Made by a program: the position numbers and the translations under genes. Shown here one piece after another: positions 1 through 41,014 of a stretch of 41,014 bases of DNA. This stretch comes from a virus (Duplodnaviria > Caudoviricetes): positions 1 to 41,014 of the IMG/VR virus record IMGVR_UViG_3300005805_000171; one strand, written 5' to 3'. The stretch's first letter is position 1. Each line of letters starts with the position of its first letter. The notes below the pieces were generated by a model. It searched no databases, was not told the origin of the DNA, and saw nothing but the letters and a program-made list of their open reading frames with translations.

Positions 1-1526
1 TCTTGTTCAATCTGATTCTTCTGTTCTTCATAAATTCTCTTACGGACATCATTATCCGTCATTTCTTTGAAGTATGGTTGCATAACCAACCATGCAAATA
101 TAACTAAACACATTGCAAGGTCATCATTGCATCCATCTTCAGCCTCAAATGAATTTGCCTTTTGAATAAAGGTCGTCAGTTCACTAATTACATCATAATC
201 TTTAATAAGTAATTTATCATCTTCAATTAATGTCTTGAGATTCATGCATCCAATCTTTTTGACATTCTTGGACATTTTGACTCCCATCTGAGATTTCTTT
301 CCAGAAAATCCTTGACCTACAAGTTGACCAGCACGGCCTCGCATCGTACACATGAGAACATTATCATATTCCAAATCCATGTGTAGAATCTGTCCCACTT
401 GTTCGCCAATATCATTAACTTCAACTAAAATATAAGCCTTATTGTAAGCCATCGCAAGATCTTTGATGATACTTGGAAATAACATCGGTTTTATCTGATT
501 ATTTCTATACTTTCCAACTAATCTATATGGAAAAGTAGTTGTATCACAAATAGTAAATGCAGAATAATCTTTTTCTACTCCACGAGCCACGTCAACTGTA
601 ATTACATAATTGTGGTCTTTTTGTGGTTCTTCATAGATATCCAATCCCGCATTACGTTTGATTGGATCATCATAAACTAAGGATCTGAGTTTAGCTGCAG
701 ATACAAGAGTATCAACAGATCCTAAGAATTCACACTCAAACTCAACTTTGAATTGTTGTTCGGAAGTATTTGCAATAGTCTGTTTCTTCCAGTTTTCATC
801 TCTACCTGGAACTTCAGACCAATGTACGTCTGTGGGTACATACTCGTTCTTACCTCTCTCCGCATCATGCCAAATGCGGTAGAAGTGATTCATACCCTTA
901 GGGGTAGAAACGATTAAGACTTTCGTGCTTTTACCTGACGAAATAGTAGGATATACAGAGGCAAAGAATTCGTCAGCAATGTGATTCGGGATGAATGCGA
1001 ACTCGTCCAAAAAGATGACATTGTACGATCCGCCTCGAACAGCAGATGCAGAAGTAGACGCGGCGATAATCTTGGAACCATTTTCTAGCTCTAAGGAACG
1101 TTTATTCCATGATACGATACCTTGTTGCATCCACTTTGGCAGTTTCTCGTATGCAAACTGTAACCTACTTAAGAGATCCTGTGCAGTTGATGCCTTGTTG
1201 GCTAGAATAGCTATGTTAACATTGTCGTTAAATACCGCATAATGTAACAAATATGAAACACAAGTCGTAGATTTACCTGTCTGACGAGGCATTCTACAAA
1301 TGTTGAATCGGTTTCCATGAAAGTTATTGATCAACTTTTCCTGGAATGGGTACATCTTGAATGGTATCTCACCATAGTCAAGAGAAACAATCTTGATGTA
1401 GTTCTTAGCAAAATACACGGGATCCTGTTTACACTTGATAAACTCAAGTACCTGATCCTGCGAGAATTCTACGGCTACATTAGCCTTCTTAAGGTTGGGA
1501 TTACCAAGATATACCTGATCACTCAT
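1..1526 (-). CDS. gp17: Terminase large subunit (T4 gp17-like), 3' end runs off the window
   Basis: Absent from the ORF track, translated by hand from ATG at 1526: MSDQVYLGNPNLKKANV..., Walker A RMPRQTGKST (~1266-1295), Walker B VIFLDEFAF, STPKGMNHFY, nuclease motifs VDVARG and DDLAM. The frame stays open to position 1. Confidence 0.97.
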   Translation of the reverse strand, partial: MSDQVYLGNPNLKKANVAVEFSQDQVLEFIKCKQDPVYFAKNYIKIVSLDYGEIPFKMYPFQEKLINNFHGNRFNICRMPRQTGKSTTCVSYLLHYAVFNDNVNIAILANKASTAQDLLSRLQFAYEKLPKWMQQGIVSWNKRSLELENGSKIIAASTSASAVRGGSYNVIFLDEFAFIPNHIADEFFASVYPTISSGKSTKVLIVSTPKGMNHFYRIWHDAERGKNEYVPTDVHWSEVPGRDENWKKQTIANTSEQQFKVEFECEFLGSVDTLVSAAKLRSLVYDDPIKRNAGLDIYEEPQKDHNYVITVDVARGVEKDYSAFTICDTTTFPYRLVGKYRNNQIKPMLFPSIIKDLAMAYNKAYILVEVNDIGEQVGQILHMDLEYDNVLMCTMRGRAGQLVGQGFSGKKSQMGVKMSKNVKKIGCMNLKTLIEDDKLLIKDYDVISELTTFIQKANSFEAEDGCNDDLAMCLVIFAWLVMQPYFKEMTDNDVRKRIYEEQKNQIEQ

Positions 1527-11300: not shown

Positions 11301-14300
11301 ATCTCCATTTTGGAAATTGTAAATAGATGAATTATTTAAAATTAGATATTGGCCAATAAGATCACTAACCAGAACAAAAGAATCAACAGGTTCAGAAACA
11401 ACGTCTCCAGAAGAAAGATTTGTTGCAGGAATTAAGTTTACTAATTGAGTTCTTCCACCAACGTTAGCCGCTCTATAGTAATTTACAGTTTTGGGTGGAA
11501 TTAAGTCAGCGTTAATTTGACCGATAGAGTTCAATTGAACAATAGCGTTTGGAATTGCATTTGTTGATACTAACTTATCAATAAAGTTGCCAAGTCTGTT
11601 GTTTAAGAAACTTCTAACTGCAAGTTGAGTGGAAACTCTCTTGTTTAATGGACCTCCAGTTTCATTATCACCCAAATCACCATCAGTAGAGAATTCTTCA
11701 ACCGCAACACCGCCAGATAGAGATAATCTAATAGAATCAAGAGTACCAATTGTTACAGTATTATTAAAGATAATGTTACCAGTTCTGTTATATGCGGTAA
11801 TAAAGTCACCAATTTTAAAGTCACCAAGTTCGTTAGTACCAGATGTAAATACTCTACCGCCACGTTCGGAAACTTGTTCAGATTTCGAATTAGTTTTTCC
11901 TCCATTTTGTGGTAAAGCATTATAATCAATACCAGATCCAGAGAATTCCCATGTGTGCGAAGATGAGTTGATGATCGAAGGTCTATGGAAATGGAGTCTA
12001 TAATTTTCCGGTAAGTTTGATATACCCTGAATAGTTCCACCAGCTAGAGTAGAATCAACTTTAAATTGAACTGACCAGTAAGTGCTAAGTCCAGCAACAG
12101 CGCTAATTGATGTTGAAATTGGACTTCCACTATGATCATCAATCGTTAAATTTAATCCTCCAGTAGCTGCAAAGTTTCTCCTGACTCCTTCGGAAAGTTC
12201 TACAGAAACTATAAGTTGTCTTGTATCATTACTCCATGTGTATGCATATCCTACGGCAGTTCCACCAGATACCTCTTGACTTACTGCTCTACCAGAAACA
12301 AAGTTAAGTGTTTGTGTTCCTGGAATAGTCAAACGTTGATATATGCTATGTCTATCAATAATTTCTTTTGCAAAAAATTCTTGAGTGTTTTTCTGTAGTG
12401 TGTGAATACCAGTTGATGCTGAAGTCAAATCAACTATTCTAGATAAAGAATCATCTTCAGCAAGTTGGAAAGATCCAGAGTCAACATATTTTACATAATA
12501 TTGGTTTTGGTTAACCAATCCACCAATAATTCTGCTAGGAATTACTCCCTCATCTCCAAGATAGACTAAACTATCTCCATTTTGGAATGGATGTAGAGCA
12601 ATATTAATGGTATCATTAGAAGTATTAACTACCCCTCCGGCTGTTACTGCTGTTCCAATAAACTCTTGTACAATTGGTGCTGGTTTAAAGTTTGCAGTTT
12701 GATCATTTCCGGTATTGTCAAAGAATCTTAAAACATATAAATCTTGTTCTGATCTACCTAATCCAACTACTTTTAGAGTGGTTAGTCCACCAGAAGTTCC
12801 AGTCGCTGCGATCCGTCCCCTGTCAAATCTGAATGAATTTGGACTGAATCCAACAGATCTTAGAGCATATAATCCAAAGTTTGTTGCAGAGTTGGTAATT
12901 GATAGGTAACCACCAGACTGAGTTAAAGATCCATAACGACAGAAGATTTGGAAGCAAGAAACGACCTGTGCATATCCATCATTAATTGTTCTCCAACCAA
13001 TGCCACCAAAAGAAACCATGGTAAATGTTGCAGCAACCATGGACTTACCTTGTTCTGGTTGTTCATCAAGAACAGGAATTTCAGCTTCTTGTGCAATAAC
13101 TGGAATGTTTGGTGATAATACTTTAGAACCATCAACTAAAATTCCATTTCCACCTAAGAATGAAAGAATAGAACAGTTTTGAATGTATGGTGATCTTGTA
13201 ATAGTCGGTTTATCGGTCTTTGTTGCATATCCAGATCTAGATGTTAGAGTATCTGTAGGATCATCAAAAGCAATTGCATAGTCAAATGTTGACTGAGGAA
13301 TACCAGCGGCATCAACCGCATCCTTCATTGCAAAACCTGTTACGTAAACACCATTTCTAACTCTAAAGAGGTCTTTACCGGCATTTAGAGGTCTGATAAT
13401 AGTATTTCTGAGGTTATCGCCAACAACTGCAACGTCATCATAAAGGAGAATTGGGTTATCTTCGGTATAATCTCCAGCCTCAACAACAATACAAACAGGA
13501 TTAGATTTTGTTTGTGGTAAAGATAGAGCTGGGCCGGCTTCTGTGCCAAATCCAATAATAGTAGTAACAATACCTGTATAATTAACAATTGCAGATCTTA
13601 CATCAGCACAATCAGTTCCACCAATGCTTGTTGAAGCAATACCAACTAAACTTCCACTTAATAAAGCGGTAGTAAGAATACCAACGAGACTATCAATAGT
13701 AGATCTTGTGTTTGAGCATACGTTTGGATTCTTATTAGTTGATCCTACAGAAACATCATTTTGAATTGTAAGATCTTGATAATTCAACCAGTTTGTAACT
13801 GCTTGTTTTGCATATGTTCCTACACTTCTGAATGCATAAACAGAAGCAGTTTCTTCTCCAAGAACACCATTTGATAGAAGTGTTCCTGCGCCATTAAAAT
13901 ATTTTTTAGTCGCATATATTGTATGTTGGTTTGTTCCGTAAGAAACATCCTGTGCAATAGCGTCTACAATGTATCCCAAGTCTCTCGCACACTTACGTCC
14001 ACCAACTACAGTTGTAGTTCCAATACCAACCGAACTGACTCCAATGCCAAGAGTACTAATTCCTGTAAGGTTTCTTACATTATAAGTAGGATTGACAAGG
14101 AAATATCCATAGTTAGTCGTAGTTCCAATACCTGCTGTACTTCCTGCAGAAACTACTGTAGTAACAATGCCTGCAAGGGAGGCAATTGTTGATCTAACAT
14201 TTGCACAAGAATTTGGACTTGTATTGAATCCTGTCTCAGAATCAGCAGTAATAGTTAAATCTCTAGAATTTAACTGATTTGTTACCGCAGAAGACATCAA

Positions 14301-17300
14301 ATCTTTTGCACTAGTGAAGACATAATTTGATTGAGCTTCTTCACCATTCAATCCATTTGGAATTGGGGATCCAACATTATTGAAGTAGAATCCAGCAAAT
14401 CTTCTGCTGTAATTATTACCACCAGTAAATACGTCCGTTGATACTGCATCTACAAAGAATGCAGTATCTCTAGCACACTTCCAAATTCCTGCAGTAGTTC
14501 CAAATCCAATTACACTAAGATTAAAGTTTCCAAGGTTAAGTGCAGGTAGTCCACTAGTATTTCCAGCGCCAACTGCAGCCGTAACAACTCCAACAAGAGA
14601 AGTAATAGTGTTCTGTACATCGGTACAGGATGTAGTGCTGGTAACTTCTACTGCACCAATTTTAGTTCCTGTATAAGATGTCGGTCCACTTGAAATGCCT
14701 AGATTTTTTTGGGTAAGTTGGTTTGTAATTGCATTTCGCATTTGAATTCCAGCTTGCTGGAATCCATAAATGCTTTGTTGTTCTTCGCCAATTAAACTAG
14801 TAGTTCCAACACCTACGAAGTAGAAACCAGTAAAGGCTCTTGCATAGTTATTACCGCCAGTAAATACGTCGGTTGAAACTGCATCTACAAAATACCCAAG
14901 ATCTCTCTGACACTTAGCTGAAGATATTCCAGAAGACCAAAGGGTAGGATACTGAACATTAATTGCTGTCATTGCAGTGGCAACAATTTCATCCTTATTA
15001 ATTTGAATCAGTCTATAAGCATCATAATACCTGGAGTCCTTAGTTGTAGAGCCAATACCAGGACCAGGTACATAAAATCCAGTTGGGAATCCAATGGCAA
15101 GAGATGCCATTGACTTATCAACGATTTCTTGTTTATTGATTGTGATTAACTTATAAGAGTCATAATATCTGGATCTAGGATTAGTTTCAACTTCACCTGG
15201 GAAGAAGAATGTAGATCCAACTCCAACTGCAACAGAAGCCAGAGACTTATCAATAATTTCTTGCCTATTTCCAACAATAAGATTTCTAGCGTCCTTGGAT
15301 CTATGGAAATAATTTGTGTTATTATTTTCTGGATCATCAATAATGGTAAAATCAAATGTCTGCGAAACTGAAGTTTGATACAAAGTCGGTGGACTTTGAT
15401 TGTTAATTACGTATTGTCCAAGGAATTTTACATAATCTATTGCAAAAGTAAATGGAACTTCTTCTCCAGTATATGTTCCAGAATTTCTAAGTACTGATGC
15501 AACATTTATAGACTTAGAATTTCCACCAAATCTGACATCATACGTAATAGCATCTACGATTGAACTTATGCCAGACTTCCAAGTATTTGCTTCAAAGTCT
15601 GGGAATATTGTAGCAACACCAATATTTTCATAATTAAATTGAACATAAGCTATTGATTCTTCTTTGATGAACTCTTTGTTCGCTTCCAGTAAATCTCCAG
15701 CATCCAAATATCTTTGACCAGGAATTTGGAAACTATCAAATGAAGCTAATTGAGCTGCCCTCTTAATAGTTTTAACTGGCAAAGACTTACCATTATAAGA
15801 ATCATCTCCGTTCTGAGCGGAAACATAATATCTACTTTCGAATAGTCCAGCACCATTTGTGGTGAATCCTAATGTACCATCAGGGTTTAATCCCAATAAT
15901 TGTCCAGCACTACCGATTTTATCAGGCAAAATTAATGTGTAATCTGAAGCAATACCAGAATTTGAAAGTTGAATTCTTACAGTTTTATCCTGAGCCCCTA
16001 CAGTATTAAATCCAACAAGAGATAATGTGGCACCAATACCAACTTGACTGAATGTAGAAATTCCAGTGTACTTTACATTTTCTCCAACAAGATTTGTAAT
16101 TGTTCCAGCTGTAGCAACTAACCTGTCAATTCCAGTAATTGAAGCTTGTATACCATCTACAGTAATAGAACCAGAACCAATCGTAAGAATTCCGGTAATT
16201 CTAGCACTACCATCAACAAATAAAGCAGTAGTTCCAATACCAATAATAACGGTTCCTACACCTGTTGTAGATCCGAAAGTGCTGACACCGGAATAATTTA
16301 AATTAGTTCCAGTAAGATCTGTGATTAATCCAACATTGGATTGTAAAGTCTCAGTAGTTGTTAAATCTGAAACAACTAAATCTGTCGCAAATCCTACGTT
16401 TAGATAAACATTGGAAGCAGCAATTCCTGGTGAACTGAGAGTTGATGCAACGGAAACACTTCCTACTAATGTAGAAACTCCAGATACATTTAAAGTAGTT
16501 ACTATTCCGGAATTAATATATGCAGTGACGATATCAAAACTTGTAGCAAATCCAGAATTTACGTATTGCTGATTAACGTAAGAAGTACTTATACTCGCCG
16601 ATGTAATTCCAACTGAAGTGATAATTCCAGTATTGATATAACCTTCATTTGCATATATGAAAGTAGAGAATCCAATATTAGTATATGTAGTATCAAGATA
16701 TGACGTTTCTGCAGTTAAAGTTGTTACTACTCCAGAATTTGCATAGAAATCATTTACTCTTGCACTAGAAATTCCTGTGGTTGTTATAATACCAGAATTA
16801 ATATATGCTGTTGTTATAATACCCGTATTTACAAATGACTGACCTACATATTGAGCACCTACAGCTATTGTAGTTCCAATACCAACATTAATATATGATG
16901 TATTTGCGTATAGTGTGGTTGTATAGAGATCTGTAACTACACCAGCTGCAATAAATGCGTTTGTTATGACACCAACATTGACAAATGATGTATTTGCATA
17001 TCCAGCTTCCGAATTAATAGTAGTTACAATACCGGAAGTTATATAAGCTGTTGGCGTGGAGAATGTATCTGCATAAAGATCTGTTATATTAGCAAGATCA
17101 ATACTTGATGTCTGTGCAGATAGTGTTGTTGTAGTAAGATCCGTTATTATTCCAGTTACTACGTATGCTGTACTTGCGGTTAATGACGTTATTCCTGCGG
17201 TAGTTAAAATACCCGAATTTACATAAAGATCCTGTACATATGCTGTAGTAATACCAATATTTGTTACTATTCCAGCCTTAATATAAAGATCTTCAATAGC

Positions 17301-21476: not shown

Positions 21477-21509
21477 AAAAAAGAGGATCGCCATAAAATA
21501 GCAATCCTC
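21477..21509 (-). terminator. Intrinsic terminator after the 335-aa gene
   Basis: Minus strand reads GAGGATTGCTAT-TTT-ATGGCGATCCTC followed by TTTTTT. Confidence 0.8.
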
Positions 21510-21547
21510 CCATTCACAATTAAAATTATTAAATTTTTAGTCAAGTA

Positions 21548-22555: not shown

Positions 22556-22598
22556 TTAAACAACTCCCCTACAGGTTATGATTTTTAATAACTATCTT

Positions 22599-22606
22599 TA
22601 TTTATA
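22599..22606 (-). promoter_or_regulatory. T4 late promoter TATAAATA
   Basis: Perfect consensus overlapping the stop of the 225-aa ORF, upstream of the 335-aa gene. Confidence 0.85.
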
Positions 22607-23611: not shown

Positions 23612-23631
23612 TATTAGAACCTGTTTTTAAG

Positions 23632-23638
23632 TATTTAT
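23632..23638 (-). promoter_or_regulatory. Late promoter core (ATAAATA)
   Basis: Shares TAA with the 71-aa ORF stop, 21 nt upstream of the ATG at 23611. Confidence 0.65.
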
Positions 23639-23850
23639 GAGTTGGAGTCTAATTTTGAAAGAATCAATCTCATCATATCTTTAATCTCATTAACCTCTGT
23701 TTTTAACATTTGTATTTCATTTTGTTTTTCTAATAAAGAATTTTTATGTACTAAGTATGATTCATAATCAGATGAAGAACAGTTTATAACTGCTCCGGAA
23801 TTAGGATCCCTATATAGAGATTTATTATTTTCTATTGGTATCAAATCCAT
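23635..23850 (-). CDS. Small coiled-coil hypothetical protein (71 aa)
   Basis: LYRDPNSGAVIN followed by heptads LKTEVNEIKDMMRLIL; starts 1 nt after the VrlC-like stop. Confidence 0.8.
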   Translation of the reverse strand: MDLIPIENNKSLYRDPNSGAVINCSSSDYESYLVHKNSLLEKQNEIQMLKTEVNEIKDMMRLILSKLDSNS

Positions 23851-23851
23851 T

Positions 23852-26800: not shown

Positions 26801-29800
26801 ACTCGCAGTATCAACATTCAATAAGGACGATGTACTTGAGTATGAAGTGGGAATTGTTTCATTTGTATTATATGGATTAGTAACAAAAACTTGTGTAGGA
26901 TTGTTATATGGTCCATATTTGTGGTTCAACTTAGCTAGTCTAAATCTTACAGAAACTGTACCCAAGGTTCCAGAGATAGTTTCTCCTAAAGTGAAAGTTC
27001 CACTCTGCATTTGGATTTCTATCAATTTTGGAATTATGTAATTTGTTATAGCTACGTTATCAAAAAACGCATATAATCTAGTTCTTGGTTTCAATCTCCT
27101 ACCAATAAATTCTATATTTCTAGAACGCATGGTATGAATAATATCAGTGGAAACAACCCTATCTCCAAGATTTGTTGTGTCAACTCTTTCACCAACTCTA
27201 TATTGAATTCCTTGTCTACTTTGATTGGTAGTAGTTAAGGTAGTTACATTGTTAAAGTTTATAAAATTATCTCTTAATCTTGTTGTATTGGTAATTGGAA
27301 TTCCTCTTCCATGTTGGAATCCCCCTCTACTTTCTGAACTAGAAAGAGTTTGTGTTCCAGTTTGAATTCTACCAACAAATGAAGTATTCGTTGTCGTTGT
27401 TCCCGTCCATGTAGTTTCCCACGAACCCCAATCAATCGGAGATAATCCAGTATTGGTATCTACTCCCAACTGTTGAATTGCACTAGTGTAACTGCCTTCT
27501 AAATCTATACTTCTTCTACTTCTTCTGGTTTCTATCCAGGTATCAGTTGCCGGATTTAATTCAATAACACCAATCCAATTTACAACATTGAAAGGATTTA
27601 CATTCTCAGATCTAGTAGCGAATCTGTTTTCTAACCAAACAGAATCCGTGTATCTAAGACAAACAACATCTCCGACCTTTACAGAATTTGGTGATCCCAG
27701 ATCACGAACAAATCTCAAATCTGCATTTGGATTGGATGTATTAGCAGCACCAACAACAGCTTCAGATCCAAGTAATAAATCAATAGAACTAGTATAATGT
27801 TGTGGTCTGGCTACTCCTTCAACAGTATCAATACTACATCTATGAAGTGGATCACCTAAAGAACCAGACAAATTAGATTTGAAATTATCTACTAAAAATC
27901 CAGACTTAAATCTATCCAATCCAGTGGTAGCGTCTCTTACCACTAGATTTCTAGTTTCAACCTCTAGTAAACTCAAAGAGCTATAATATTCTACATTTTT
28001 TAACCTATCTTCCAATAGAGATATATCTTTCATTCTATATCTCTTATGACTTACCAGCTTAACTTTAATTTGATCCATATTATATACATACGGATCTAAA
28101 GTTATAGTAGCAACTTCCATTCCACCATCTACTGGATCGGGAGTAACTGGACTTATAGAAGGTACGCCTTTTGTTAATATAAATTGTCCAGTTCTATCCA
28201 AATAAAGTCTATCAATTCTTCCAAGATAATAGTTATAAGATATATTTAAATTTTTATTTTTAGCTAAAATATATGAAGATGAATTAGTGACTGCAGAAAA
28301 ATTCCTTGCGTTCCATTCAAATGGAGAGTATGTAGATGTACCCGAATCATATGGAACTACTCTTGGACGCAAATCAATTAAGTCTTTGACATTATTTCCA
28401 TCAAAAGAAATGTTATCGTTAGTAAATCTATTAGTGTCGTAAGAATTCGATACAACTACATTACCATCATCAGAAGGATTTATATAATAGTAATTATATA
28501 CTATCTTTAATTTTCTAGATGGTGATGTTGAAGAAGATTTTCTTTCAATATATGAATAATTTACAATATCCTGTTCTTGTCCATTATTGAAAATGAAATC
28601 ATTTCTAATATCTCTATCACCTTCTATTAAATAATCAACGTTTGCTGTTAGGTTTGATTCCAAAAATGTAACTTCTTCATCTTTTATAAAAGAATTTTCA
28701 TTTACATAAACAAAATCAACTCTATTACTACCATTATTAGATACTAACATTGCTCTAGCATTACTAGAGGATCCGTATATAATCTCACCCGTTATTGTAT
28801 TTAAAATATTAGTATTTAAATTTTTTATTTGTAATTTTGGTAGATCTGGTTCATTTGTATCATTTGACTCAAATATTCCAATAATTTCAGTAACATCTGG
28901 AACTTGTAAAGAAATTTTATCATCCTGAACTCTTGTTCCGTAAATATTACTATAAGTTAGTCCATCGTTTAAGGTTGTATTACCAATACCTGATCCTACC
29001 AATAAAGACCTATTGAGATTTAAAATTCCAGCCCTCTTGTGTATTTTTCTTCTTGGTTTTAAATCTTGTTTTTTCAGAGTGGCTATTAAAGTTGCAGAAC
29101 CACTAGATACATTCAAATCTACAAATGTTACAGTTCTTCCAGAAGTAATAGTAAATTTAGTTTCATCTAAAGGTTCAATAGTTCCATCAGAATGAATTAG
29201 TGTATAATCTTCTTCATCAAAAGGTTCTGCTGTTATTGTAGTATCGGACTCTAATGTTATAGTAAAACTATTTGATGATATGGTTACTGGATATGATTTT
29301 CTAAATACTAAACTTCCAGAACTGAGATCGACTGAAGAAATATTTTTATGTTCTAGTTTTTCATATAAGTAAGCTTCTCTAGAGTTCAATATTCTAGGAA
29401 TAACTTTAAATACTTCATTGGAAGTAATTTGAGTAGCTGGAAGAGTTCCAGAACAAACGTTAGTAACATTTGCAGCCGCTTCAATAACAATAGATCTAGA
29501 AGATGTATTTACAACTTTTACTTTATTGTAGGTTGGTAGAATTTCTCCTGGTTTGGTATAAGAAATTATATCTCCTGTTTGAATTCCAACACCAAAATTT
29601 ATATTAGATGTTGTTATAGTGCTTATTCCAGCGCTAGTAGCGGATATAGTAAATCCAGATGTTACTGGTGCTAACAGAACATTTTGACTTAATATTGGAT
29701 CTGCAGTGAAAATATTGCCTGTTAATCCAGTTCCGGCTATTTGGTGAACGTCGGATATAGAATAATCTCTTACTTTATTAACTACTCTTGTATTTTCAAC

Positions 29801-31378: not shown

Positions 31379-31384
31379 TTTATT

Positions 31385-32980
31385 TTAGAACTCCAGTATA
31401 ACTTTAATGTCTTCCTTTTGGTTTGCAGATCTTGGAATTGGTGCCCTGTTGTCTATGTAGATTATTTCTCCCGATTTTACGTTATATTCTGCAGAAGAAA
31501 TTCCGGAAACAAAGTTCAAACCTAACTGATATATTCTATTATTTATTGTAGTAGTAATACCATTAAATCCAGTGTCTATAGATAAAGCGGGACCAGTAAT
31601 GGAACTACAATTAATAGTAACTCCATATCCAGAAGTTGGGTTTGACGTAAATGGAATTATTTTAAATCCGGATTCACTTGAAGCTAGTCCTGTTGGTTGA
31701 TAATATTTTAAAACTCCAGTAACTGGATCCCAAGAGGCTACATATCCAATAGCTGTGGATCCAACTCCAACGGTTTGTTTAATGATAGAATCTACAGCAT
31801 AAATTGTATTTGTAGTTACTCCTGACATCTTCAGTCCCTTAAGTCCACTTACTAATGAAGTATTCAAAAGTTCTGTACTACTATCAATTACTGTTGGGTT
31901 TCTAATTATTCCTACCCTAGCAAAATCATTTCCAATAATAATATCTGGATTTGAGTCCAAAGTTTCATATCTAGAATATAAAAGAACTCTATAAGCTCCC
32001 AACTCTCTATAGACATCATATCCATGACCACCCTTAGGTGGAATAATGACATTAAAACTAGCTTTTGATGTAGTCCCAATACCAGTATTACTTAATTTAC
32101 TCAAAGGTCCATTTATATCAGTTCCTGGAGCTCCAGGAAAAAATTCTATAGTACCATAGGTATAATCTGTTCCACCTTCAGTAACAAAAATTTCAGAAAC
32201 TTTACCAAAAGAGTCAATAGTAATAGTAGCCTTACCGTCTTTTCCATCTCCCAATATTGGGACATTAGAAAATGAAGTTGAAATTGGTTGATAATTACTT
32301 CCTCTATTGGATATTAAGATAACTTCAATTTTACCGTCAATAGAATTATTTTTTGTAGAAACGGTTTCTCCCACATTTCCCCAATCCTCAGGAACTGGAA
32401 TATATTCAATAGAATCAAACTTTATTATTTCCGATGGTTTTATTGTATAAAGATATTTCCAAAGGTATCCATCACCACTTGAACCTGCAGTTCTTGGTTC
32501 AAGATCTATAAATGTTGGTTGATCATATGATGGTCTACCTTTTGGGTTTTCAGGATCTGTTCCATTTTGCAAACAAACATATACCCGAAGATCTTCATTT
32601 ACTACATAATAATTTGCTTCATATAAACTAGAGTTTCCCGTAACTGGGGTGGGATTGTAAACACTATAGTCATGTCTATACATTTCATAAGTATTGCCGC
32701 TTACCCACTGAACTTTTCTTACCAATCTCCTAACATCTTGACTAGTAATCTGTTTCATTGCAATGATACTTTCTTTTATCTGATTTTCTTCTTTAAAACC
32801 ATCTAAAGGAGAAGGAGTATTATTAATCCAAATTGGAGATCCACCAGATTGAACGCTGGTGGAATTGGGAAGTCCAATGAAAGTATAATACTTGTTACTA
32901 GTATCTCCCACACCAGAAACACTTTTTACAAAGTTTTCGGCATTTAAAATTCTAAACTGATCAGATATGATGGCAGGCAT
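31385..32980 (-). CDS. gp8: Baseplate wedge subunit (gp8-like)
   Basis: AIISDQFRILNAENF, RVYVCLQNG, DGYLWKYLYTI, PKGGHG, SGEIIYIDNR.PI.R..NQKEDIKVILEF. Confidence 0.93.
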   Translation of the reverse strand: MPAIISDQFRILNAENFVKSVSGVGDTSNKYYTFIGLPNSTSVQSGGSPIWINNTPSPLDGFKEENQIKESIIAMKQITSQDVRRLVRKVQWVSGNTYEMYRHDYSVYNPTPVTGNSSLYEANYYVVNEDLRVYVCLQNGTDPENPKGRPSYDQPTFIDLEPRTAGSSGDGYLWKYLYTIKPSEIIKFDSIEYIPVPEDWGNVGETVSTKNNSIDGKIEVILISNRGSNYQPISTSFSNVPILGDGKDGKATITIDSFGKVSEIFVTEGGTDYTYGTIEFFPGAPGTDINGPLSKLSNTGIGTTSKASFNVIIPPKGGHGYDVYRELGAYRVLLYSRYETLDSNPDIIIGNDFARVGIIRNPTVIDSSTELLNTSLVSGLKGLKMSGVTTNTIYAVDSIIKQTVGVGSTAIGYVASWDPVTGVLKYYQPTGLASSESGFKIIPFTSNPTSGYGVTINCSSITGPALSIDTGFNGITTTINNRIYQLGLNFVSGISSAEYNVKSGEIIYIDNRAPIPRSANQKEDIKVILEF

Positions 32981-33000: not shown

Positions 33001-33007
33001 TATTTAG
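33001..33007 (-). promoter_or_regulatory. Late promoter core (CTAAATA) for gp8
   Basis: Shares TAA with the gp7 stop, 21 nt upstream of the gp8 ATG. Confidence 0.6.
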
Positions 33008-36000
33008 TTACTTAAGTTAGGTCTTGTTCTTACAATCTTTGGAGAAGTTGATAATCCAGTTAATCCATTGTCAGTATATACATCGAAAGATTTTGAGCCA
33101 GTTAAAGATAATGACCTATTTTGGAAGTCATATATCTTAGACCAACTATATCTACCATAGAAACCATTAGTATTAATACCAGAGAAAGTCAAAGTCCCAG
33201 TATCGTAAGTTCCTCTATTGGAAACGGAAACTGATGTCCCGTAATCTGGAGCAAAGTGACAAGTAACCGTAACTATTCCAGAGAAAGGAGCAGTTACATC
33301 TTCTACAATATAAACACCATCTAAGAAATTAGTCGCTACTCCAATCTTAGAATTTGGATAGTTGGACATTCCACCTAAGAATGTGGAAATTCCTATTAAA
33401 CTTCCATCGGTCTGAACGTTACTTTGACTTATTACAAAATAATCGCCCTTTTCAAGTTGAGAATTTGTTACACCAAAAGTATTTGGCGAAGAATATCCAA
33501 TACCAAGAGTACTATTATCATAAGTTTCAGATTTTAATACAAATTCAATTTTAGGAGACACTGTTCCAATTCCAGGAGTTCCAGGTAAAAATGTTGTTAC
33601 CCCAACTATATCCCCATAATCACCCACAACTTTAAATGATTTCACCAATTCCGTCTTAAATGAATCGGGTTCTATTATAATGCTTGGGATCTTGGAGTTG
33701 AAATATCCAAATCCACCATCAATAACATTAATGCTAGAAACTTGTCCATCAGTGACAATAGATTCGGCAGTAGCTCTATGATAAACAGGTGTAGATTTTA
33801 TAATTGTAGCACCATATCCAACGGCTACGAAAGTACCTTCAATGCCCAAAGTTTCCACAAATGTTAAGTCAGTCAAGTTATTTGATTGTAAGGTATCTCT
33901 GAATGTCCAATTAGATAGATCGTATGAGTAATACATCTTATTCATAGATGTAATACCAACATATAAACCATCAAAATAAGTTATATTTACAATATCCTCA
34001 GAGGAATTAATATTATTTGGAATTGGTTCATATAAATTACGATTGATAGACTTCAATATAGTTCCACTATTTCCAACAACAATAAATCTATTACCATCAT
34101 ATATCACTTTATTATACTTTTGAAGTAGTACGCCATTTTGATTAATATCCCAGGTAAGACCTTGGTCGGAAGAAATTACAGTTCCATTATTACCAACTGC
34201 AACATAGTAATTATTTCCATAAGCAACAGAATTTAGATCTTGAAGAACTCCCGAGAATCTACTGATGAATCTTGAAGTAACTATTCCAGAAGCGGTAAAT
34301 ATTGATCCACCGGCTCCAACTACAACCCAACCATTATTGCCAGCACATATCGAATTAAATGTTCCTGAATAAGTTGTTGGATTATACCCCACAACTCCAA
34401 CTCCAACTAATGTTATTTCCTCTAAACAAGGAATTTCAGTCCAAGAAGTAATAGTGGAACTATATCCTACAGCTTGTGCTATTTTAGCACTTGATCCTGT
34501 TGTTAAAATTATATCGGATGACCCAACACTAACTTTTTTAACAGATTTTAAATTAACTGTACTGCCAACACCAACATTGCCAGTAATCCAAGTTTCGCCA
34601 TCAAAACTATACGCATAAAGAGAACTATTACCAACTGCCACAAATTGATTTCCATAAGATAATTCATTGAATACCGATAATGTAGTAATTCCACTTAGAT
34701 TTACATATTGCCAGTTATAAATTGGATCTTTTTTCTGTATAGCGGATGAAGATATCCTAACTTTTGGTGATAATGTATTTGCATAGCCAACTCCAGGGTT
34801 GGTTATTACTATTGATCCAACAGTTGATGCTCCGGAAACGACTGCTGTCGCTACTGCTGAGAAAACTTCTTTATCCTCAGTGATTATAATATCTCTAATA
34901 TTTTCATTCAATTGATCAAGATCAGAGAATAGTGGGAAGGCATTGTCAACATAAATCACATCATCTGATGGCAAGATCTTCTTAATTACTGTTGCTGTTG
35001 GAGTTATGTTGGCCTGAACATTTGGTCTAGATTTTGAGAATAAAGTTCCGGAAATAATTCTATCTTGTTTTTGTTTCTTCCAAGTTAAAGGTCTAAGTTT
35101 TGCAGAATCTGTATTTATTCCTATGCTAGAGTAGACAAAAGTTTCTAGTTGATCAGAAGAAGTTAAAGTTTTAACAACTCTATCGGATTGTTCAATATCA
35201 AAAATATCAATATTACTTTCTTGAACTCTAATTAAGTCCCCTTCTTTTATTGTTTTTGGTGGAATAATTTCAGAAACATCCACAGAAGAACCTCTATAAT
35301 ATAGAATTACGCACTTGGAATTTTCTATAGGAGCTTCAGTAAATACTACTCTACTTCCCTGGAATGTATATGCATAGGTAGGATCTTGTAAAATATCATT
35401 TATGAATATGAATATATTATTTGTTATATCCAAATCTGTTCCAGGAGGTGTTCTCAAATTAAGAATTTGATTTTCACCATTAATTTCTGCAGATAAAGTA
35501 AATTTCTTTCTAAACCCATTGAAGGAAGAACTAATATCATTAAATACTATAAATTGTCCAGGATAAAATCCACTGAAAGAATCAGTTTCTACAGAGTCTA
35601 CAGTTAAGACAAACTCCTCTACTGTGGTTCCAGGAATTGTAGGTACTCCCACTACTTTCAGTTTATCTCCAACTTTATATCCAATTCCAGGTTCATCGAA
35701 TTTAAAGTTAGTTATACTTGACCCAGAACCAACTTCAATAGTTATTTTGGCTTTTTGGCCAACTCCAGAAGTTCCCCCAGTATAAGCCAAACCAAGATTA
35801 CTATATCCTGTTGGAATTCCAATTACAACTTTTGGAGGAGATGTTACAGTATAACCAACTCCAGGAGAAACAACTTGTATAGAAGTTATAATTCCCAATG
35901 TTGTTCCACTAGTGCCGACAAGAGCTACTAAACTTGCTCCATATCCAATTGTAGAAGCCAAGCTAACTGGTGGAGGATTTCTATATCCAGATCCTCCACC

Positions 36001-39000
36001 AGTTACTGTAATAGATGATATCGTACCTCCAATAGAAACTACTGCATCTGCAGAAGCAACTAGTCTAGGTTGATATCCAAACGAAGTACTTATGGAAACT
36101 GCTGATATTCTTCCTGCAGCTGGAGTTCCACTTAAGAATACTAAAGAGTTACTTACAGGATTTTCTACTGTTACATCACTTATTGGAGACTGAAATACTC
36201 CATTTATGAATATTAATGGAATATTATTAATATCTGTAGTATTATTGACATTATTGAATAATGTCGTGGTAGTTTCACCATCAACTTTTACCGTAAACTG
36301 AGTAGCAGCTATACCTGTAAATGAATCGGAAATATCATCTAGTATAATATTTCTATCTCTAGGTTCGGCAGAATTAATCTGTCTAGAGAAGACTCTTCCA
36401 GAGAATGAAGATCTAGTTTCAACGCCAACGGGTCCAGTTGGACCATATGGAGCTGTGGCAAAAAATATAGTATCTCCAACTATATTAAACTTACCCTTAA
36501 ATATCGATGCGGTTGTTGCAGAACTGTGTATTCCTGCAGTAGATCCAAAAGATCCTCTTTCAACATCAATATTATTCTGACTCAATAAAATATTTTTAAT
36601 TTCCAAATATTCATCATTCAACTTGATGATATCACCAACAATTACCGATGTTATTCCAGAAGTAACGGGTAATATTGTTGTAGTTGCGGTAGAAACCGAT
36701 GACCCAAGACTAATAGTTAATGGAGTCCTAGAAAGTGGTGGTTGAACAACATTATCAACAGAAATAAATGCACTTGAATTGGGATTTTTGAGGCTTAGAC
36801 TATGTAAACCAATTCCCAATGAGTTAATGTCTAAGAATATTGGACTGGTAGATAATCCCAATAATCCAAATTGATTATCATTTAGTTTGTATACAAATAC
36901 AGTTTCTGGTAGTTTATTTGATCCAATTTCGGAAGGAGTAAAGGATACATAATCATCCGTAGATCCACCAAGATATGTCCCAGCTACAGATACAACTGAA
37001 GTTGAATTGTATCCAACTCCACCATTAATAACATCGACAACAGAAATATAACCAGAAGAATCCCTAGAAATGTTAAATATTGCTCCGTTAGAATCATCTG
37101 ATGGAACATCAATATAGACTTCATTAGCTCTTGTTTGAATTCCAGTTGGGCCAGTCTTGGAGATGACAAAGGTTAAATCGTTTGTGGGAGACAAACCGCC
37201 AATATAAGTTCCAGCGATAGAAACTGTCTGACCAACTACATACCCACTGCCACCTTTAGTAGGTAATATTGAAGTAGAAAGTGGTTGTCCCGTTGATGGT
37301 GAATAAGTTATTAATACTGTAAATTCAGCACCAGTTCCAGTAGTTGTTAATCCAACAGATTGGACGTATGATTTGGATATTGGTCCTACTGGACTTAAAA
37401 TTGTGGATATACCTGATACTGAAGTACTAATAGAAACGGAATATCCATTTTCAAAAACGGCAGTTCCATCCAACTCATGAACATTCATTAAAATACTAGC
37501 ACCAACTCCAACATATGATGTTGTTGCAATTCCTATTGGACTTCCAGTTCCAAAATCATATATTAATTCTTGACCGGTTTGATAATTATGATTAAAAATA
37601 GTAATAACATTTTGTGAAACAGAAACGATATTAGAATCATTAGAATCAAATTCATGTTTAAATAGACTAATGCCTTTATTTTTCAATTTAAACGTTGTTA
37701 ATCCAACAACAGCTCCACCTAAAGATAATGATGCATATGTCAATGGAGGTGCGAAATCAGTACCAAGACCAATAATAGTTGTTATAATACCAACATAGTT
37801 GCCCAAAGACGTTCTAACATCAGCACAGTCGGTTGTACCATAACTTTCTGTGGGGATTCCAGAGAGACTACTATTACCTATAGCAACTGTCAAAATACCA
37901 ACTAAAGTATCAATGTTTGTTTGGATATCAATAAAAGAGGATGTACTTGTATTAACACCAGTCAATGGATCAACCTCAATGGTTAAATCTCTGGCATATA
38001 ACTGATTAGTTATTGCTTGCTTCATAAAGTATTTGGAGGTTTCAAATACTAAAATTGATTGCGATTCTTCTCCAACAAGACCATTGGTTATTGCAATACC
38101 AACTCCATCAAAATATTTTTTAGTATTATAAATTGTATGCTGATTAGTTCCATAAGAAATATCTTGAGCAACACCGTCGATAATGTATCCCAAATCTCTA
38201 AAACATTTCAATCCACCAGTAGTATATGTACCAGGATTTGCAAAAGGTAAAGTAGAGGTTGATCCTAAAGAAATAATAGCTGTGACAATACCAGATAGAC
38301 TGATAATACTATTTTGGACATCAGTACAAGCAGTTAATGATGTATTTGAAACTGTTACACCTATTCCATAAACTGGTGGACCAGCAGTAACTGTCAGATC
38401 TTTTATTGTTAGTTCATTTCTTACAGCCTTCCGCATCATTGTTGCGGCTTCACCAAAAGCAAAAATAGACTCCAATATTTCACCAGCTAATCCATTCGAA
38501 ATGGGTAAACCATTGTCAAAATATTTCAATACAAATTCTCTTGAATATGCATTTCCACCAGTAAATATGTCTAAAGAAACGGCATCAACAAAATATCCAA
38601 GATCTCGTTTGCATTTTGTTTCAGTTGAAATAACTCCAGGATATGTAGCAATAGTATTAGTCCAAGCAGTATCAACAATTTCTGTTCTATTTTGTTGGAT
38701 TAATCTATAACCATCATAATATCTTGATCTAGAATTTGTTGGAGAGTCGCCTGGGAAATAAAAATCGGAGTGGGCTACTGCTACTGAGGCTAGAGATCTG
38801 TCTTGAATTTCTCTCTTATTGAGTAAAATTAATGATCTGGCGTTTTTATATTTACTTGTACCATCATTTAATGGATCTTGAAGTATATCAAAATTAAATT
38901 GTTGTGCAATTGAAGTTTGGTATAGTGTTGGTGGAGTTTGATTATTAATTACATACTGACCAATGAATTTTACATAATTGTATGCAAATAAAGTTTCTTC

Positions 39001-41014
39001 AGTTTCATTAGTAACATATGATGACCCCGCATCCCAATAAGCAAGTCCCGCTTCTACGGAACGATTGTTGGAAGCATATTTCAAATCATAAGAGACTGCA
39101 TCAACAATATAACCAACATCTCTCTTACACTTGGTAGAATCATATGTTGTACTCAATCCAATATTTGGATAGTTGAATTCAACGAAAGCTACAACTTCTT
39201 CTTGAATAAATTCTCTATTCAACTCTAAAAGTTCCGATGCATCACTATATCTACCCACTAAAGGAACTGATGTTGTGCCAGTAAATTGTGGGCTAATATC
39301 ATCTATTCGGATGACTTTATTTGTTTGATTTAGAATATATGGTCTAAGTTCTACACCTTCAGTAAAGAAGATTTTATCTGTAGATCCGTCTGGATATGGT
39401 TCGTCTTCATATACTAAAGCATAATTTTTCCTAGTTGACATATCAACTTCACTATCAATATTAAAGAAGAGATCGGAAGATCCACCCAAAAGTTTTGGTT
39501 TCATATTTTGGGATCTTGCAATACCAACTAAAACTTCTTCGGAAGTTGGTTGAGTAAACAAAGTATAATCTGAAAATTCTTGGAATCCCGATGGATGAAC
39601 TATAGATCTTACCGATTCTCTCCATGTAGAATATGGTACATTAGTTCTTAAAGAATATGAAAACTTTTGATAATAGAAATTGTCAGAAATTCTTTGTTGG
39701 AAATCATTTAAAATTCCATCAGTGTTTGTGGAAGAAGTATTGTCTCTAGTTGCGGATAAAGTGGAATCAATCTCAAATGAATTAAAATATTCAACAACAC
39801 CAGAAACTTTTGAGTATTCACCAAATAAAACATCACCAATTTGAAGATCCCCAACAGAATCGGTTATTCTCATTTGATTTAATTTATTGTCCCACCCACT
39901 TTCCATTATTTTTCCACTAAATTTTGGAGATGTGACTTTTTCAGCAGATTGGTAGTTGACATCATCTTTCAATACCATTCTAAAAGAAGACATGTCTTTC
40001 TTATTAATGACAACTCCTCTTCTGTCACTATTATAAGTACCGAAACCACCTGTAGCTATTCCAGACATACTATAAGTTATAGTATTGTTTGAAGTGCTTA
40101 CACCAGTAACTGTAAAAAATCTATAATCATATGAAGATGAATTGTAGTTTGCCAATGAACTTGTTTCATCTATTAACAAACATTTTTCTATAAAAATTTC
40201 ATCTCCAATTGAAAATGGAAATACAGTTATAGTTGATCCATATCCAGAATTTATGAGTGGATATGAAGTTGGTGTATTAAATAACTCTATAGTTACATCA
40301 CTACCAGCAACACTAAATGCATCTATTTCATAACCATTAGAATTATAAATCGGAATAATATCTAATGGTGAACTAAGAGATCTAGAATTTTTTATTATAT
40401 CTACAGATACAACAGATCCCCCACTAATATTTGATTTTAATTCAATATCTTCACCATTTTTTACAAACAATATGGGTGGGGTATTATATTTTGATCCTGC
40501 ATTTATAATTTCAACTCTATCTATTGTTCTGATGTCTTTTATTCCACAAACTATTGTAGTACTAAGTTGTGCCGACAATGTTGGATCAGTTGGATAATCG
40601 AATCCATCTTTTATCCTTTTGAGAGATTCGATTTTTCCGATATCATCAGATATTAATTTAAGAACAGCATTATCCCCATTTTCAGATTGGATATCTAAAA
40701 TAGAAGGAATCTTTTTGTATCCTCTACCACCAAAATTTATTTTTATATTTTCAATAGGACCATCAGCAGTTTCAGAAGTTGTAGTATAAGTTATTCTTGA
40801 TGTTGGTAGTATATTTATTTCGGTTGGAGTTAACTGTTTTGTCGAATTAAAAGAAAAAACATTATCATCAATAACTAAATCTATTTTTATTTTAGTATTC
40901 AATTGATGATCGATAATATTAATCTTATTAAATGAATCGACTTCTTTATCTACAGATACTTGATATTTACTCTGATCTAGTGGGCTTATTGGATTTAATT
41001 TATAATATAAAACT
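33004..41014 (-). CDS. gp7: Baseplate wedge initiator (gp7-like), 5' end outside the window
   Basis: QRISDNFYYQKFSYSL..W...V...VHPSG motif and position upstream of gp8. The frame has no stop between 40902 and 41014 (VLYYKLNPISPLDQSKYQ...), so the track's TTG start is an edge artefact. Confidence 0.85.
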   Translation of the reverse strand, partial: VLYYKLNPISPLDQSKYQVSVDKEVDSFNKINIIDHQLNTKIKIDLVIDDNVFSFNSTKQLTPTEINILPTSRITYTTTSETADGPIENIKINFGGRGYKKIPSILDIQSENGDNAVLKLISDDIGKIESLKRIKDGFDYPTDPTLSAQLSTTIVCGIKDIRTIDRVEIINAGSKYNTPPILFVKNGEDIELKSNISGGSVVSVDIIKNSRSLSSPLDIIPIYNSNGYEIDAFSVAGSDVTIELFNTPTSYPLINSGYGSTITVFPFSIGDEIFIEKCLLIDETSSLANYNSSSYDYRFFTVTGVSTSNNTITYSMSGIATGGFGTYNSDRRGVVINKKDMSSFRMVLKDDVNYQSAEKVTSPKFSGKIMESGWDNKLNQMRITDSVGDLQIGDVLFGEYSKVSGVVEYFNSFEIDSTLSATRDNTSSTNTDGILNDFQQRISDNFYYQKFSYSLRTNVPYSTWRESVRSIVHPSGFQEFSDYTLFTQPTSEEVLVGIARSQNMKPKLLGGSSDLFFNIDSEVDMSTRKNYALVYEDEPYPDGSTDKIFFTEGVELRPYILNQTNKVIRIDDISPQFTGTTSVPLVGRYSDASELLELNREFIQEEVVAFVEFNYPNIGLSTTYDSTKCKRDVGYIVDAVSYDLKYASNNRSVEAGLAYWDAGSSYVTNETEETLFAYNYVKFIGQYVINNQTPPTLYQTSIAQQFNFDILQDPLNDGTSKYKNARSLILLNKREIQDRSLASVAVAHSDFYFPGDSPTNSRSRYYDGYRLIQQNRTEIVDTAWTNTIATYPGVISTETKCKRDLGYFVDAVSLDIFTGGNAYSREFVLKYFDNGLPISNGLAGEILESIFAFGEAATMMRKAVRNELTIKDLTVTAGPPVYGIGVTVSNTSLTACTDVQNSIISLSGIVTAIISLGSTSTLPFANPGTYTTGGLKCFRDLGYIIDGVAQDISYGTNQHTIYNTKKYFDGVGIAITNGLVGEESQSILVFETSKYFMKQAITNQLYARDLTIEVDPLTGVNTSTSSFIDIQTNIDTLVGILTVAIGNSSLSGIPTESYGTTDCADVRTSLGNYVGIITTIIGLGTDFAPPLTYASLSLGGAVVGLTTFKLKNKGISLFKHEFDSNDSNIVSVSQNVITIFNHNYQTGQELIYDFGTGSPIGIATTSYVGVGASILMNVHELDGTAVFENGYSVSISTSVSGISTILSPVGPISKSYVQSVGLTTTGTGAEFTVLITYSPSTGQPLSTSILPTKGGSGYVVGQTVSIAGTYIGGLSPTNDLTFVISKTGPTGIQTRANEVYIDVPSDDSNGAIFNISRDSSGYISVVDVINGGVGYNSTSVVSVAGTYLGGSTDDYVSFTPSEIGSNKLPETVFVYKLNDNQFGLLGLSTSPIFLDINSLGIGLHSLSLKNPNSSAFISVDNVVQPPLSRTPLTISLGSSVSTATTTILPVTSGITSVIVGDIIKLNDEYLEIKNILLSQNNIDVERGSFGSTAGIHSSATTASIFKGKFNIVGDTIFFATAPYGPTGPVGVETRSSFSGRVFSRQINSAEPRDRNIILDDISDSFTGIAATQFTVKVDGETTTTLFNNVNNTTDINNIPLIFINGVFQSPISDVTVENPVSNSLVFLSGTPAAGRISAVSISTSFGYQPRLVASADAVVSIGGTISSITVTGGGSGYRNPPPVSLASTIGYGASLVALVGTSGTTLGIITSIQVVSPGVGYTVTSPPKVVIGIPTGYSNLGLAYTGGTSGVGQKAKITIEVGSGSSITNFKFDEPGIGYKVGDKLKVVGVPTIPGTTVEEFVLTVDSVETDSFSGFYPGQFIVFNDISSSFNGFRKKFTLSAEINGENQILNLRTPPGTDLDITNNIFIFINDILQDPTYAYTFQGSRVVFTEAPIENSKCVILYYRGSSVDVSEIIPPKTIKEGDLIRVQESNIDIFDIEQSDRVVKTLTSSDQLETFVYSSIGINTDSAKLRPLTWKKQKQDRIISGTLFSKSRPNVQANITPTATVIKKILPSDDVIYVDNAFPLFSDLDQLNENIRDIIITEDKEVFSAVATAVVSGASTVGSIVITNPGVGYANTLSPKVRISSSAIQKKDPIYNWQYVNLSGITTLSVFNELSYGNQFVAVGNSSLYAYSFDGETWITGNVGVGSTVNLKSVKKVSVGSSDIILTTGSSAKIAQAVGYSSTITSWTEIPCLEEITLVGVGVVGYNPTTYSGTFNSICAGNNGWVVVGAGGSIFTASGIVTSRFISRFSGVLQDLNSVAYGNNYYVAVGNNGTVISSDQGLTWDINQNGVLLQKYNKVIYDGNRFIVVGNSGTILKSINRNLYEPIPNNINSSEDIVNITYFDGLYVGITSMNKMYYSYDLSNWTFRDTLQSNNLTDLTFVETLGIEGTFVAVGYGATIIKSTPVYHRATAESIVTDGQVSSINVIDGGFGYFNSKIPSIIIEPDSFKTELVKSFKVVGDYGDIVGVTTFLPGTPGIGTVSPKIEFVLKSETYDNSTLGIGYSSPNTFGVTNSQLEKGDYFVISQSNVQTDGSLIGISTFLGGMSNYPNSKIGVATNFLDGVYIVEDVTAPFSGIVTVTCHFAPDYGTSVSVSNRGTYDTGTLTFSGINTNGFYGRYSWSKIYDFQNRSLSLTGSKSFDVYTDNGLTGLSTSPKIVRTRPNLSN
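37762..39252 (-). repeat. Three nested phycobiliprotein-like helical domains inside gp7
   Basis: KCKRDVGYIVDA (Cys 39127-39129), KCKRDLGYFVDA (38611-38613), KCFRDLGYIIDG (38203-38205); closing helices ACTDVQ, SFIDIQ, DCADVR. Confidence 0.7.

What the first reader, a model, noticed from the sequence alone, without database searches (positions are those of the whole stretch)
37762..39252. The same nested phycobiliprotein-like cassette is inserted separately in baseplate gp7
Seen: clear paralogy with the fibre insert (YVKF[IL]GQYVINNQ[TS]PPTLYQTS; SLASVAV; RSRYYD; QD[IV]SYGTNQHTIY.TKKYF; DCADVR), with three domains rather than four. It interrupts a different host module (IDDISPQFTG..[insert]..TTFKL). 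All three cores keep K-C-x-R-D-x-G-Y. Inference: a mobile cassette placed on both the receptor-binding fibre and the contraction-triggering baseplate, pointing to a selected function at the infection apparatus.
Basis: partly seen in the sequence, partly recalled or inferred. Interest (0 to 1): 0.85.

Follow-up and report, generated by a model that had tools for sequence, protein, structure and literature searches.

The report
Pigment-binding-type domains nested in phage baseplate
A giant baseplate protein of this likely cyanobacterial virus contains three nested domains that keep the pigment-attachment residues of the host's light-harvesting proteins and are predicted to fold like them, and related phages of likely non-photosynthetic bacteria pair such domains with their own pigment-making genes, so the virus tail likely carries bilin pigment and may use light to time attachment.

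Summary
Confirmed. Bases 37762-39252 encode three nested domains inserted into one loop of the gp7 orthologue. The site is empty in S-SSM7 and holds one domain in DSL-LC03. The fibre cassette is 43% identical, and domains group by cassette position, so a pre-assembled unit was copied long ago. The AlphaFold model (pLDDT 87) best matches phycoerythrin beta (Z 16.0). All three CxRD motifs are kept; two domains keep a second Cys in the beta-155 register.

The family is not cyanophage-only. Uncultured large phages without psbA carry giant proteins with up to about 25 single-Cys repeats. All 5 near-complete genomes of that kind encode a bilin reductase, and the 4 tested have heme oxygenase beside it. 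Among cyanophages, cpeT occurred only with the domain (6 of 8 carriers, 0 of 5 non-carriers). Exceptions exist: Mosig, P-SSM2 and S-SSM7 have a reductase but no domain; DSL-LC03 and B3 have domains but no cpeT.

Covalent bilin is about 70% likely; light-coupled attachment about 40%. Neither is shown. The scan noted this family before on other DNA; my paper searches found no description in print.

The parts
33004..41013 (-). gp7-like giant baseplate wedge initiator, C-terminal 2,669 aa; 5' end cut by the contig end
   Evidence: PHROG 2885 E 4e-241; upstream of gp8; 51% identical to S-SCSM2R ORF104 from its aa 1956, which PMC12801897 lists in the virion proteome (passages)
37762..39252 (-). Three-domain nested phycobiliprotein-fold insert (497 aa)
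   Evidence: Pfam PF00502 E 2e-4, 21.8 bits against a 22.2 cut-off; model pLDDT 87, pTM 0.84; VIA Z 16.0 to 5aqd_M
38947..39252 (-). Outer domain, N-terminal part (insert aa 1-102) with KCKRDVGY, Cys codon at 39129
   Evidence: 1b8d_A aligns to model 1..495, Z 12.8
37762..37833 (-). Outer domain, last helix with DCADVR (second Cys, insert aa 476), in the register of beta-phycocyanin GDC...Y
   Evidence: Cys in 43 of 43 rows; beta-phycocyanin sequences
38773..38856 (-). Middle domain, N-terminal helices (insert aa 133-160)
   Evidence: model helices H133-144 and H146-160; assignment to the middle domain is inferred from the repeat order
37873..38220 (-). Middle domain core and last helix, KCFRDLGY (Cys codon at 38205); second Cys replaced by Phe in this copy
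38266..38727 (-). Inner, uninterrupted domain (insert aa 176-329) with KCKRDLGY (Cys codon at 38613) and ACTDVQ (second Cys codon at 38328)
   Evidence: VIA matches over model 172-329 to allophycocyanin and ApcE, Z 14.4 and 14.3; second Cys in 46 of 46 rows
39277..39306 (-). Host module, left side (IDDISPQFTG)
37684..37698 (-). Host module, right side (TTFKL)
   Evidence: follows the left side after a short loop in S-SSM7 gp7
13545..15713 (-). Paralogous four-domain cassette in the tail fibre gene 8025-17975 (Mtd_N N-terminus, Peptidase_S74 chaperone C-terminus)

Best explanation
The insert is three nested domains that are predicted to have the phycobiliprotein globin fold, keep the bilin-attachment CxRD motif, and likely carry covalently bound bilin pigment on the virion's baseplate, where absorbed light would influence attachment to the host. 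Shown here: the insertion, the nesting order, residue conservation, and the co-occurrence with bilin genes. Step 1 (inferred): during assembly, bilin from the host, or from the phage's own hemO plus reductase in phages of non-photosynthetic hosts, is joined to the CxRD Cys, possibly without a lyase as in BBAG globins. Step 2 (inferred): the helix-H Cys is a beta-155-type site served by phage CpeT or host CpcT. Step 3 (least certain): arrays of pigment on fibre and gp7 couple light to fibre or baseplate conformation and so favour adsorption in daylight. Odds: about 0.7 for bound bilin, about 0.4 for the whole chain.
For: Fold: the top 8 VIA rows are phycobiliproteins or ApcE (Z 16.0-12.5), above photocobilin (11.8) and sensor globins (11.0 or less). 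Profile match to phycocyanin alpha: probability 93.5, E 2e-7. Among 1,787 core cells from 263 proteins, Cys is kept in 1,754, Arg in 1,713 and Asp in 1,776 (rows were picked by the profile). CXRD is the covalent site of phycobiliproteins and of BBAG-1/3, which bind bilin without lyases (PMC10151467 passages). In five many-repeat proteins most Cys lie in CxRD: 24 of 26, 22 of 26, 15 of 28, 22 of 27, 25 of 30. Four of four near-complete genomes picked by the domain lack psbA/D and cpeT, yet have adjacent hemO and bilin reductase. Of 3 near-complete genomes picked only by capsid protein, one has both domain and reductase and two have neither. In cyanophages cpeT occurred in 6 of 8 domain carriers and 0 of 5 non-carriers. 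The single-Cys class lacks cpeT in 5 of 5 genomes, as expected if T-type lyases serve Cys-155 (PMC2327270 passages). P-HM1 and P-HM2 carry the domain in gp7 and do not adsorb in the dark. P-SSM2 lacks it and does adsorb in the dark. S-PM2 carries it, and its light-dependent adsorption does not need host photosynthesis (PMC6628666 passages).
Against: No pigment binding is shown. Foldseek E-values were all 0.07 or higher, and Pfam falls just under its cut-off. The second Cys aligns with beta Cys153 only in a forced global alignment of probability 0.3. Pelagibacter phage Mosig has hemO and reductase but no domain, even in a sensitive scan. P-SSM2 and S-SSM7 have a reductase but no domain. DSL-LC03 and B3 have domains but no cpeT. 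CxRD decays in some copies: the inner Cys is kept in only 35 of 46 rows, and S-SCSM2R gp7 keeps 1 of 3. P-SSM2 adsorption is still enhanced by light without the domain. Tested BBAGs were photoinert. The genome counts are small, hand-picked and include close kin.
Confidence: 0.4

Rival explanations
1. The domains do carry bilin, but passively: the pigment shields or stabilises the tail (photoprotection, quenching of reactive oxygen, or bilin-dependent folding) and does not gate attachment.
For: The same fold, motif and co-occurrence evidence applies. Copy number runs from 1 to about 25 per protein, which fits a bulk property better than a switch. Tested BBAGs are photoinert with low fluorescence. 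The family occurs in phages of likely heterotrophs, where daylight gating is less obviously useful.
Against: All hits I inspected are in tail, baseplate or unassigned structural proteins, so shading of the packaged DNA is not the obvious gain. The domain is present in the phages with strict light-dependent adsorption.
Confidence: 0.3
2. The domains carry no pigment and act as helical spacer or scaffold modules, with the cysteines forming disulfides.
For: Nested and tandem amplification is typical of structural modules (inference). Motifs decay in some copies. The inner and outer second cysteines are both invariant (46 of 46, 43 of 43), and I could not measure distances in the model.
Against: The two Cys of a domain are not lost together: the inner CxRD Cys is missing in 11 rows that keep the second Cys, and the middle second Cys is missing in 9 rows that keep the first. 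The many-repeat class has about one Cys per domain. Arg and Asp are kept along with Cys. This reading does not explain the link to hemO, reductase and cpeT.
Confidence: 0.15
3. The domains bind a host ligand or mimic host phycobiliproteins during recognition or after infection.
For: They sit on the fibre and the baseplate. The best structural match also covers the N-terminal helices of phycoerythrin beta (model 148-328 against chain 1-184).
Against: Phycobiliproteins are intracellular (established knowledge). The family occurs in phages whose closest cultured capsid relatives infect Proteobacteria or Flavobacterium.
Confidence: 0.1

Closest known systems
Phycobiliprotein subunits (Pfam PF00502): phycoerythrin and phycocyanin beta by fold, phycocyanin alpha by motif
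   Same: Globin core (VIA Z 16.0 to 5aqd_M, rmsd 3.9 over 149 residues; Z 14.4 to 8or7_A, rmsd 2.1 over 122), K-C-x-R-D-[IL]-G-Y as in CpcA, and a Cys at the start of the last helix as in CpcB
   Different: The domains are fused and nested inside a virion structural protein, share only 10-19% identity, have no free N-terminal X/Y arm per domain, and are not alpha/beta heterodimers. Pigment is not shown.
Bilin biosynthesis-associated globins BBAG-1/BBAG-3 (PMC10151467)
   Same: CXRD globins linked to heme oxygenase and a bilin reductase in non-photosynthetic settings
   Different: BBAGs are small bacterial globins clustered with pre-PcyA genes. These domains are repeats in phage tail proteins, far from the bilin genes in the four genomes examined. 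I made no direct comparison with BBAG sequences.
Phage hemO-pcyA/X cassettes (PMC11480375) and cyanophage CpeT
   Same: These phage bilin-supply and T-type lyase genes co-occur with the domain
   Different: The papers read assign them to host metabolism or leave their purpose open. Here the virion itself is the proposed sink, but Mosig shows that it cannot be the only one.
T4-like cyanophage giant virion proteins (PHROG 4527, 5342, 701, 18802, 3442)
   Same: The insert matches all five families
   Different: They are annotated only as tail fibre, structural protein or unknown, with no note of the globin domain in the records seen.

Membership tests
Phycobiliproteins (PF00502) | Globin-type helical core | tested here: met
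   VIA Z 16.0, 14.4 and 14.3, above other globins; Foldseek TM by target 0.5-0.75 with probability 1.0 but E 0.07 or higher
Phycobiliproteins (PF00502) | Sequence score over the Pfam cut-off | tested here: inconclusive
   21.8 bits against 22.2, E 2e-4; hhalign probability 93.5 to CpcA
Phycobiliproteins (PF00502) | Cys84-Arg86-Asp87 (CxRD) attachment motif | tested here: met
   3 of 3 domains in the window; aligned with CpcA and CpcB CxRD
Phycobiliprotein beta subunits | Second attachment Cys (beta-155) at the start of helix H | tested here: inconclusive
   Cys at the start of the last helix in 2 of 3 domains; aligned to Cys153 only in a forced global alignment, probability 0.3
Phycobiliproteins (PF00502) | Free 160-185 aa subunit with X/Y helices forming alpha/beta dimers in a phycobilisome | tested here: not met
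   The domains are nested inside a gp7 frame of more than 2,669 aa
Phycobiliproteins (PF00502) | Covalently bound bilin | not testable with these tools
   Needs co-expression or virion mass spectrometry
BBAG-1/3 globins | Association with heme oxygenase and a bilin reductase | tested here: inconclusive
   Met at genome level in 4 of 4 non-cyanophage carriers tested for both genes, but not as a gene cluster. The window's contig is 21% complete.
BBAG-1/3 globins | Phylogenetic placement in the BBAG clade | not tested
   No BBAG sequences were fetched
T4-like gp7 baseplate wedge initiator | Position between gp6 and gp8, and homology to annotated gp7 | tested here: met
   Upstream of gp8 here; the orthologue lies between gp6 and gp8 in S-SCSM2R, P-SSM2, S-CAM9 and DSL-LC03

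The most novel reading that the evidence does not exclude
Many aquatic T4-like phages, of cyanobacteria and of heterotrophs alike, build pigmented virions. Phage-encoded heme oxygenase, bilin reductase and CpeT load bilins onto arrays of globin domains in fibres and baseplates, which act as a light antenna that lets the free particle sense daylight and decide when to attach.
Probability: 0.3. Interest if true: 0.97.

Novelty: new variant of a known kind. Interest (0 to 1): 0.8.

Why it matters
It offers one testable substrate for three open items. The first is the purpose of hemO plus bilin reductase in phages of non-photosynthetic bacteria, left open in PMC11480375. The second is the target of cyanophage CpeT. 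The third is light-dependent adsorption, which PMC6628666 attributes to unidentified light-sensitive receptors or fibres. Cultured carriers exist (S-SCSM2R, P-HM2, S-PM2), so a zinc blot or mass spectrum of purified virions can decide the first step. A pigment-bearing or light-sensing virion is not described in the papers I found.

Tried and rejected
Single-sequence AlphaFold failed (pLDDT 33). phmmer against PDB found nothing. Profiles gave only weak phycobiliprotein hits, E 0.13 or higher. hhalign to phycocyanin beta gave probabilities of 3-4. No cellular homologue was confirmed in genome contigs: 0 of 35 pattern hits (low sensitivity). The ESM Atlas gave unnamed viral clusters and weak phage-tail hits. 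An apparent domain in S-SSM7 gp7, suggested by a PHROG length, was not there. An intradomain disulfide was rejected on uncoupled Cys loss. 'Domain occurs exactly with cpeT' was rejected (DSL-LC03, B3). 'Every hemO-reductase phage has the domain' was rejected (Mosig). 'Cyanophage-only' holds for cultured records (387 of 387, 269 of 269 and 296 of 296 carry cyanophage or marine-virus names) but not for uncultured phages. In the tree, 4 domain hits lacked an anchor and were dropped, and the row PHM2gp7b_1 is mis-anchored and should be ignored. Paper searches that found no description of the domain: (0 papers); the library lacks most subscription journals. I opened no supplements; the globin tree of PMC10151467 (Fig. 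S11) and the S-SCSM2R proteome tables may bear on novelty.

Full report
Context. The window is a 41-kb structural region of a T4-like phage. All identified genes are on the minus strand: terminase, neck, fibre, gp8 and a 5'-open frame at 33004-41013. The record is a single contig, 21% complete. The frame is 51% identical to ORF104 of Synechococcus phage S-SCSM2R, which lies between gp6 and gp8 and was detected in virions (PMC12801897, passages). The cyanobacterial host is inferred from these relatives.

Observation. Bases 37762-39252 give 497 aa with three K-C-x-R-D-x-G-Y cores, 43% identical to fibre aa 755-1477. At the same gp7 site S-SSM7 has no insert, DSL-LC03 has one domain and S-SCSM2R has three; S-CAM9 and P-SSM2 gp7 have none. 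In a tree of 60 cores (75 columns, many forks unresolved; 4 hits dropped, 1 row mis-anchored), outer domains of gp7 and fibre group together (16 rows, 100/99). The domains with the last core form a further group (17 rows, 93/87), and inner-type domains are separated from both (98/92). So a pre-assembled cassette was copied between genes, and the fibre's fourth domain is an extra inner-type copy. The copying is old: DNA identity is 67-85% in short stretches only, and GC matches the host gene. The direction of copying was not tested.

Fold. With 55 aligned relatives AlphaFold gave pLDDT 87 and pTM 0.84. The wide structural search ranks phycoerythrin beta first (Z 16.0, rmsd 3.9, 149 aligned), then allophycocyanin (14.4) and ApcE (14.3), above photocobilin (11.8) and sensor globins. 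The tool warns that Z under about 13 can be generic for helical bundles; the best rows exceed this. Single chains aligning to model 1..495 confirm that the outer domain is closed by the final helix. Foldseek agrees in rank, but without significant E-values. Profiles match phycocyanin alpha (probability 93.5) and beta only weakly. The second Cys starts the last helix, like the GDC of CpcB, but this alignment is low-confidence. The idea that it is the beta-155 site, and the cpeT link, came from earlier AI notes and were tested here.

Family. The insert matches 387 cultured phage records, all with cyanophage or marine-virus names, and 904 cluster representatives. Proteins carry from one to more than twenty repeats. 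CxRD is complete in 1,694 of 1,787 core cells (a profile-selected set). A second class of giant proteins has many repeats and no second Cys, with most of their cysteines in the motif. Capsid proteins from two such loci are closest to jumbo phages of Proteobacteria (about 70%) and to an uncultured phage and Flavobacterium phage immuto (52-56%); a record named Microcystis phage is also at 52%. Heterotrophic hosts are therefore likely, not shown.

Bilin genes, non-cyanophages. Of 14 contigs picked through the second class, 4 are at least 97% complete. All 4 lack psbA/D and cpeT and encode a bilin reductase with heme oxygenase adjacent; the 10 partial ones showed no reductase. Of 18 long contigs picked only by capsid protein, 8 have the domain and 2 have the reductase, both among the 8. 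The 3 near-complete ones are concordant: G026 has both, G036 and G037 have neither. Of 18 contigs picked by reductase (19-58% complete), 5 have the domain. Among four cultured controls, HTVC008M, immuto and Phosso have neither, and Mosig has hemO and reductase but no domain. For complete or near-complete genomes the tally is 5 both, 0 domain only, 1 reductase only, 5 neither (Fisher p 0.015). The picks are not random and G002 and G003 are close kin.

Bilin genes, cyanophages. Six genomes have domain and cpeT (S-SCSM2R, Syn1, P-HM2, S-CAM7, ACG-2014f, G015). Two have the domain only (DSL-LC03, B3), none has cpeT only, and five have neither (S-SSM7, S-CAM9, P-SSM2, P-TIM68, S-SRM01) (p 0.021 with the same caveats; G016 at 77% complete left out). 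B3, P-TIM68 and S-SRM01 had only the tool's loose look. In Syn1, cpeT lies about 700 bases before the domain-rich gene; in S-PM2 it is far away. The pattern is one-directional: each near-complete carrier examined either infects a cyanobacterium, which supplies bilin, or encodes a bilin reductase, but bilin genes also occur without the domain.

Mechanism. CXRD globins bind bilin covalently, BBAG-1/3 without lyases, and tested BBAGs are photoinert (PMC10151467, passages). T-type lyases serve Cys-155 (PMC2327270, passages; PMC10452541, passages). The purpose of hemO-pcyA/X in phages of heterotrophs is left open, with a BBAG-type partner named as one possibility (PMC11480375, passages). I put covalent bilin at about 0.7. 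For its role, P-HM1 and P-HM2 carry gp7 domains (in P-HM2 with both cysteines) and do not adsorb in the dark, while domain-free P-SSM2 does, though less than in light (PMC6628666, passages; PMC2984593, passages, adds only that adsorption is light-dependent in several myoviruses). This is three carriers against one non-carrier. It favours light-coupled attachment (0.4) only slightly over a passive protective role (0.3). An intradomain disulfide is unlikely because the two cysteines are lost independently.

Novelty. The fold and motif are known; their use as nested repeats in virion proteins, tied to phage bilin genes, did not appear in my paper searches. PMC10665884 was read in passages and does not mention it there; the other listed papers were seen only as search listings. 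The scan itself has noted the family on other genomes (15 notes), and one note proposes the hemO link. These are unchecked AI notes, not support. This report adds the empty/one/three-domain series at one gp7 site, the position-wise tree, the single-Cys class with controls, and counter-examples to both co-occurrence claims.

Noticed in passing
window 8025-17975: The fibre cassette interrupts a module reading YYVSAQNGDDS...KTIKRAAQLA [insert] IVVEAGDYTE, which resembles the start of a pectin-lyase-like beta-helix (label recalled, not from a call).
   Followed up: no
L121 (S-SSM7) 12846-31940: gp7 is split into two genes of about 3,000 aa with a small gene between them; the window's frame matches parts of both.
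   Followed up: partly
L187 (Syn1) 9007-10252: cpeT, tRNA-Leu and a 2OG-Fe(II) oxygenase lie directly before the domain-rich giant gene. cpeT is within about 5 kb of the domain in S-CAM1, S-CAM3, S-CAM4, S-RIM44, S-RSM4 and others.
   Followed up: partly
L132 2807-15307; L163 2-14323: Proteins of 4,200-4,800 aa with 22-24 CxRD repeats, many as 108-aa units without the last helix; the small gene just downstream in G001-G003 also has a weak domain match.
   Followed up: partly
L615 (Mosig) 16258-20585: Ferrochelatase, heme oxygenase and bilin reductase sit between tail fibre and neck genes, yet no globin domain was found, so another bilin sink may exist there.
   Followed up: partly
L020 (S-SCSM2R) 20001-21503; L085, L079: One gp7 lineage has lost CxRD in the outer and inner domains but keeps the helix-H cysteines; S-SCSM2R has cpcT.
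   Followed up: partly
window 18024-21443: A 1,139-aa repeat-rich protein (PHROG 11522, unknown function) beside the fibre.
   Followed up: no
G049 (L222): A contig with two bilin reductase genes; G058 and G059 have a reductase match with an internal TAA.
   Followed up: no
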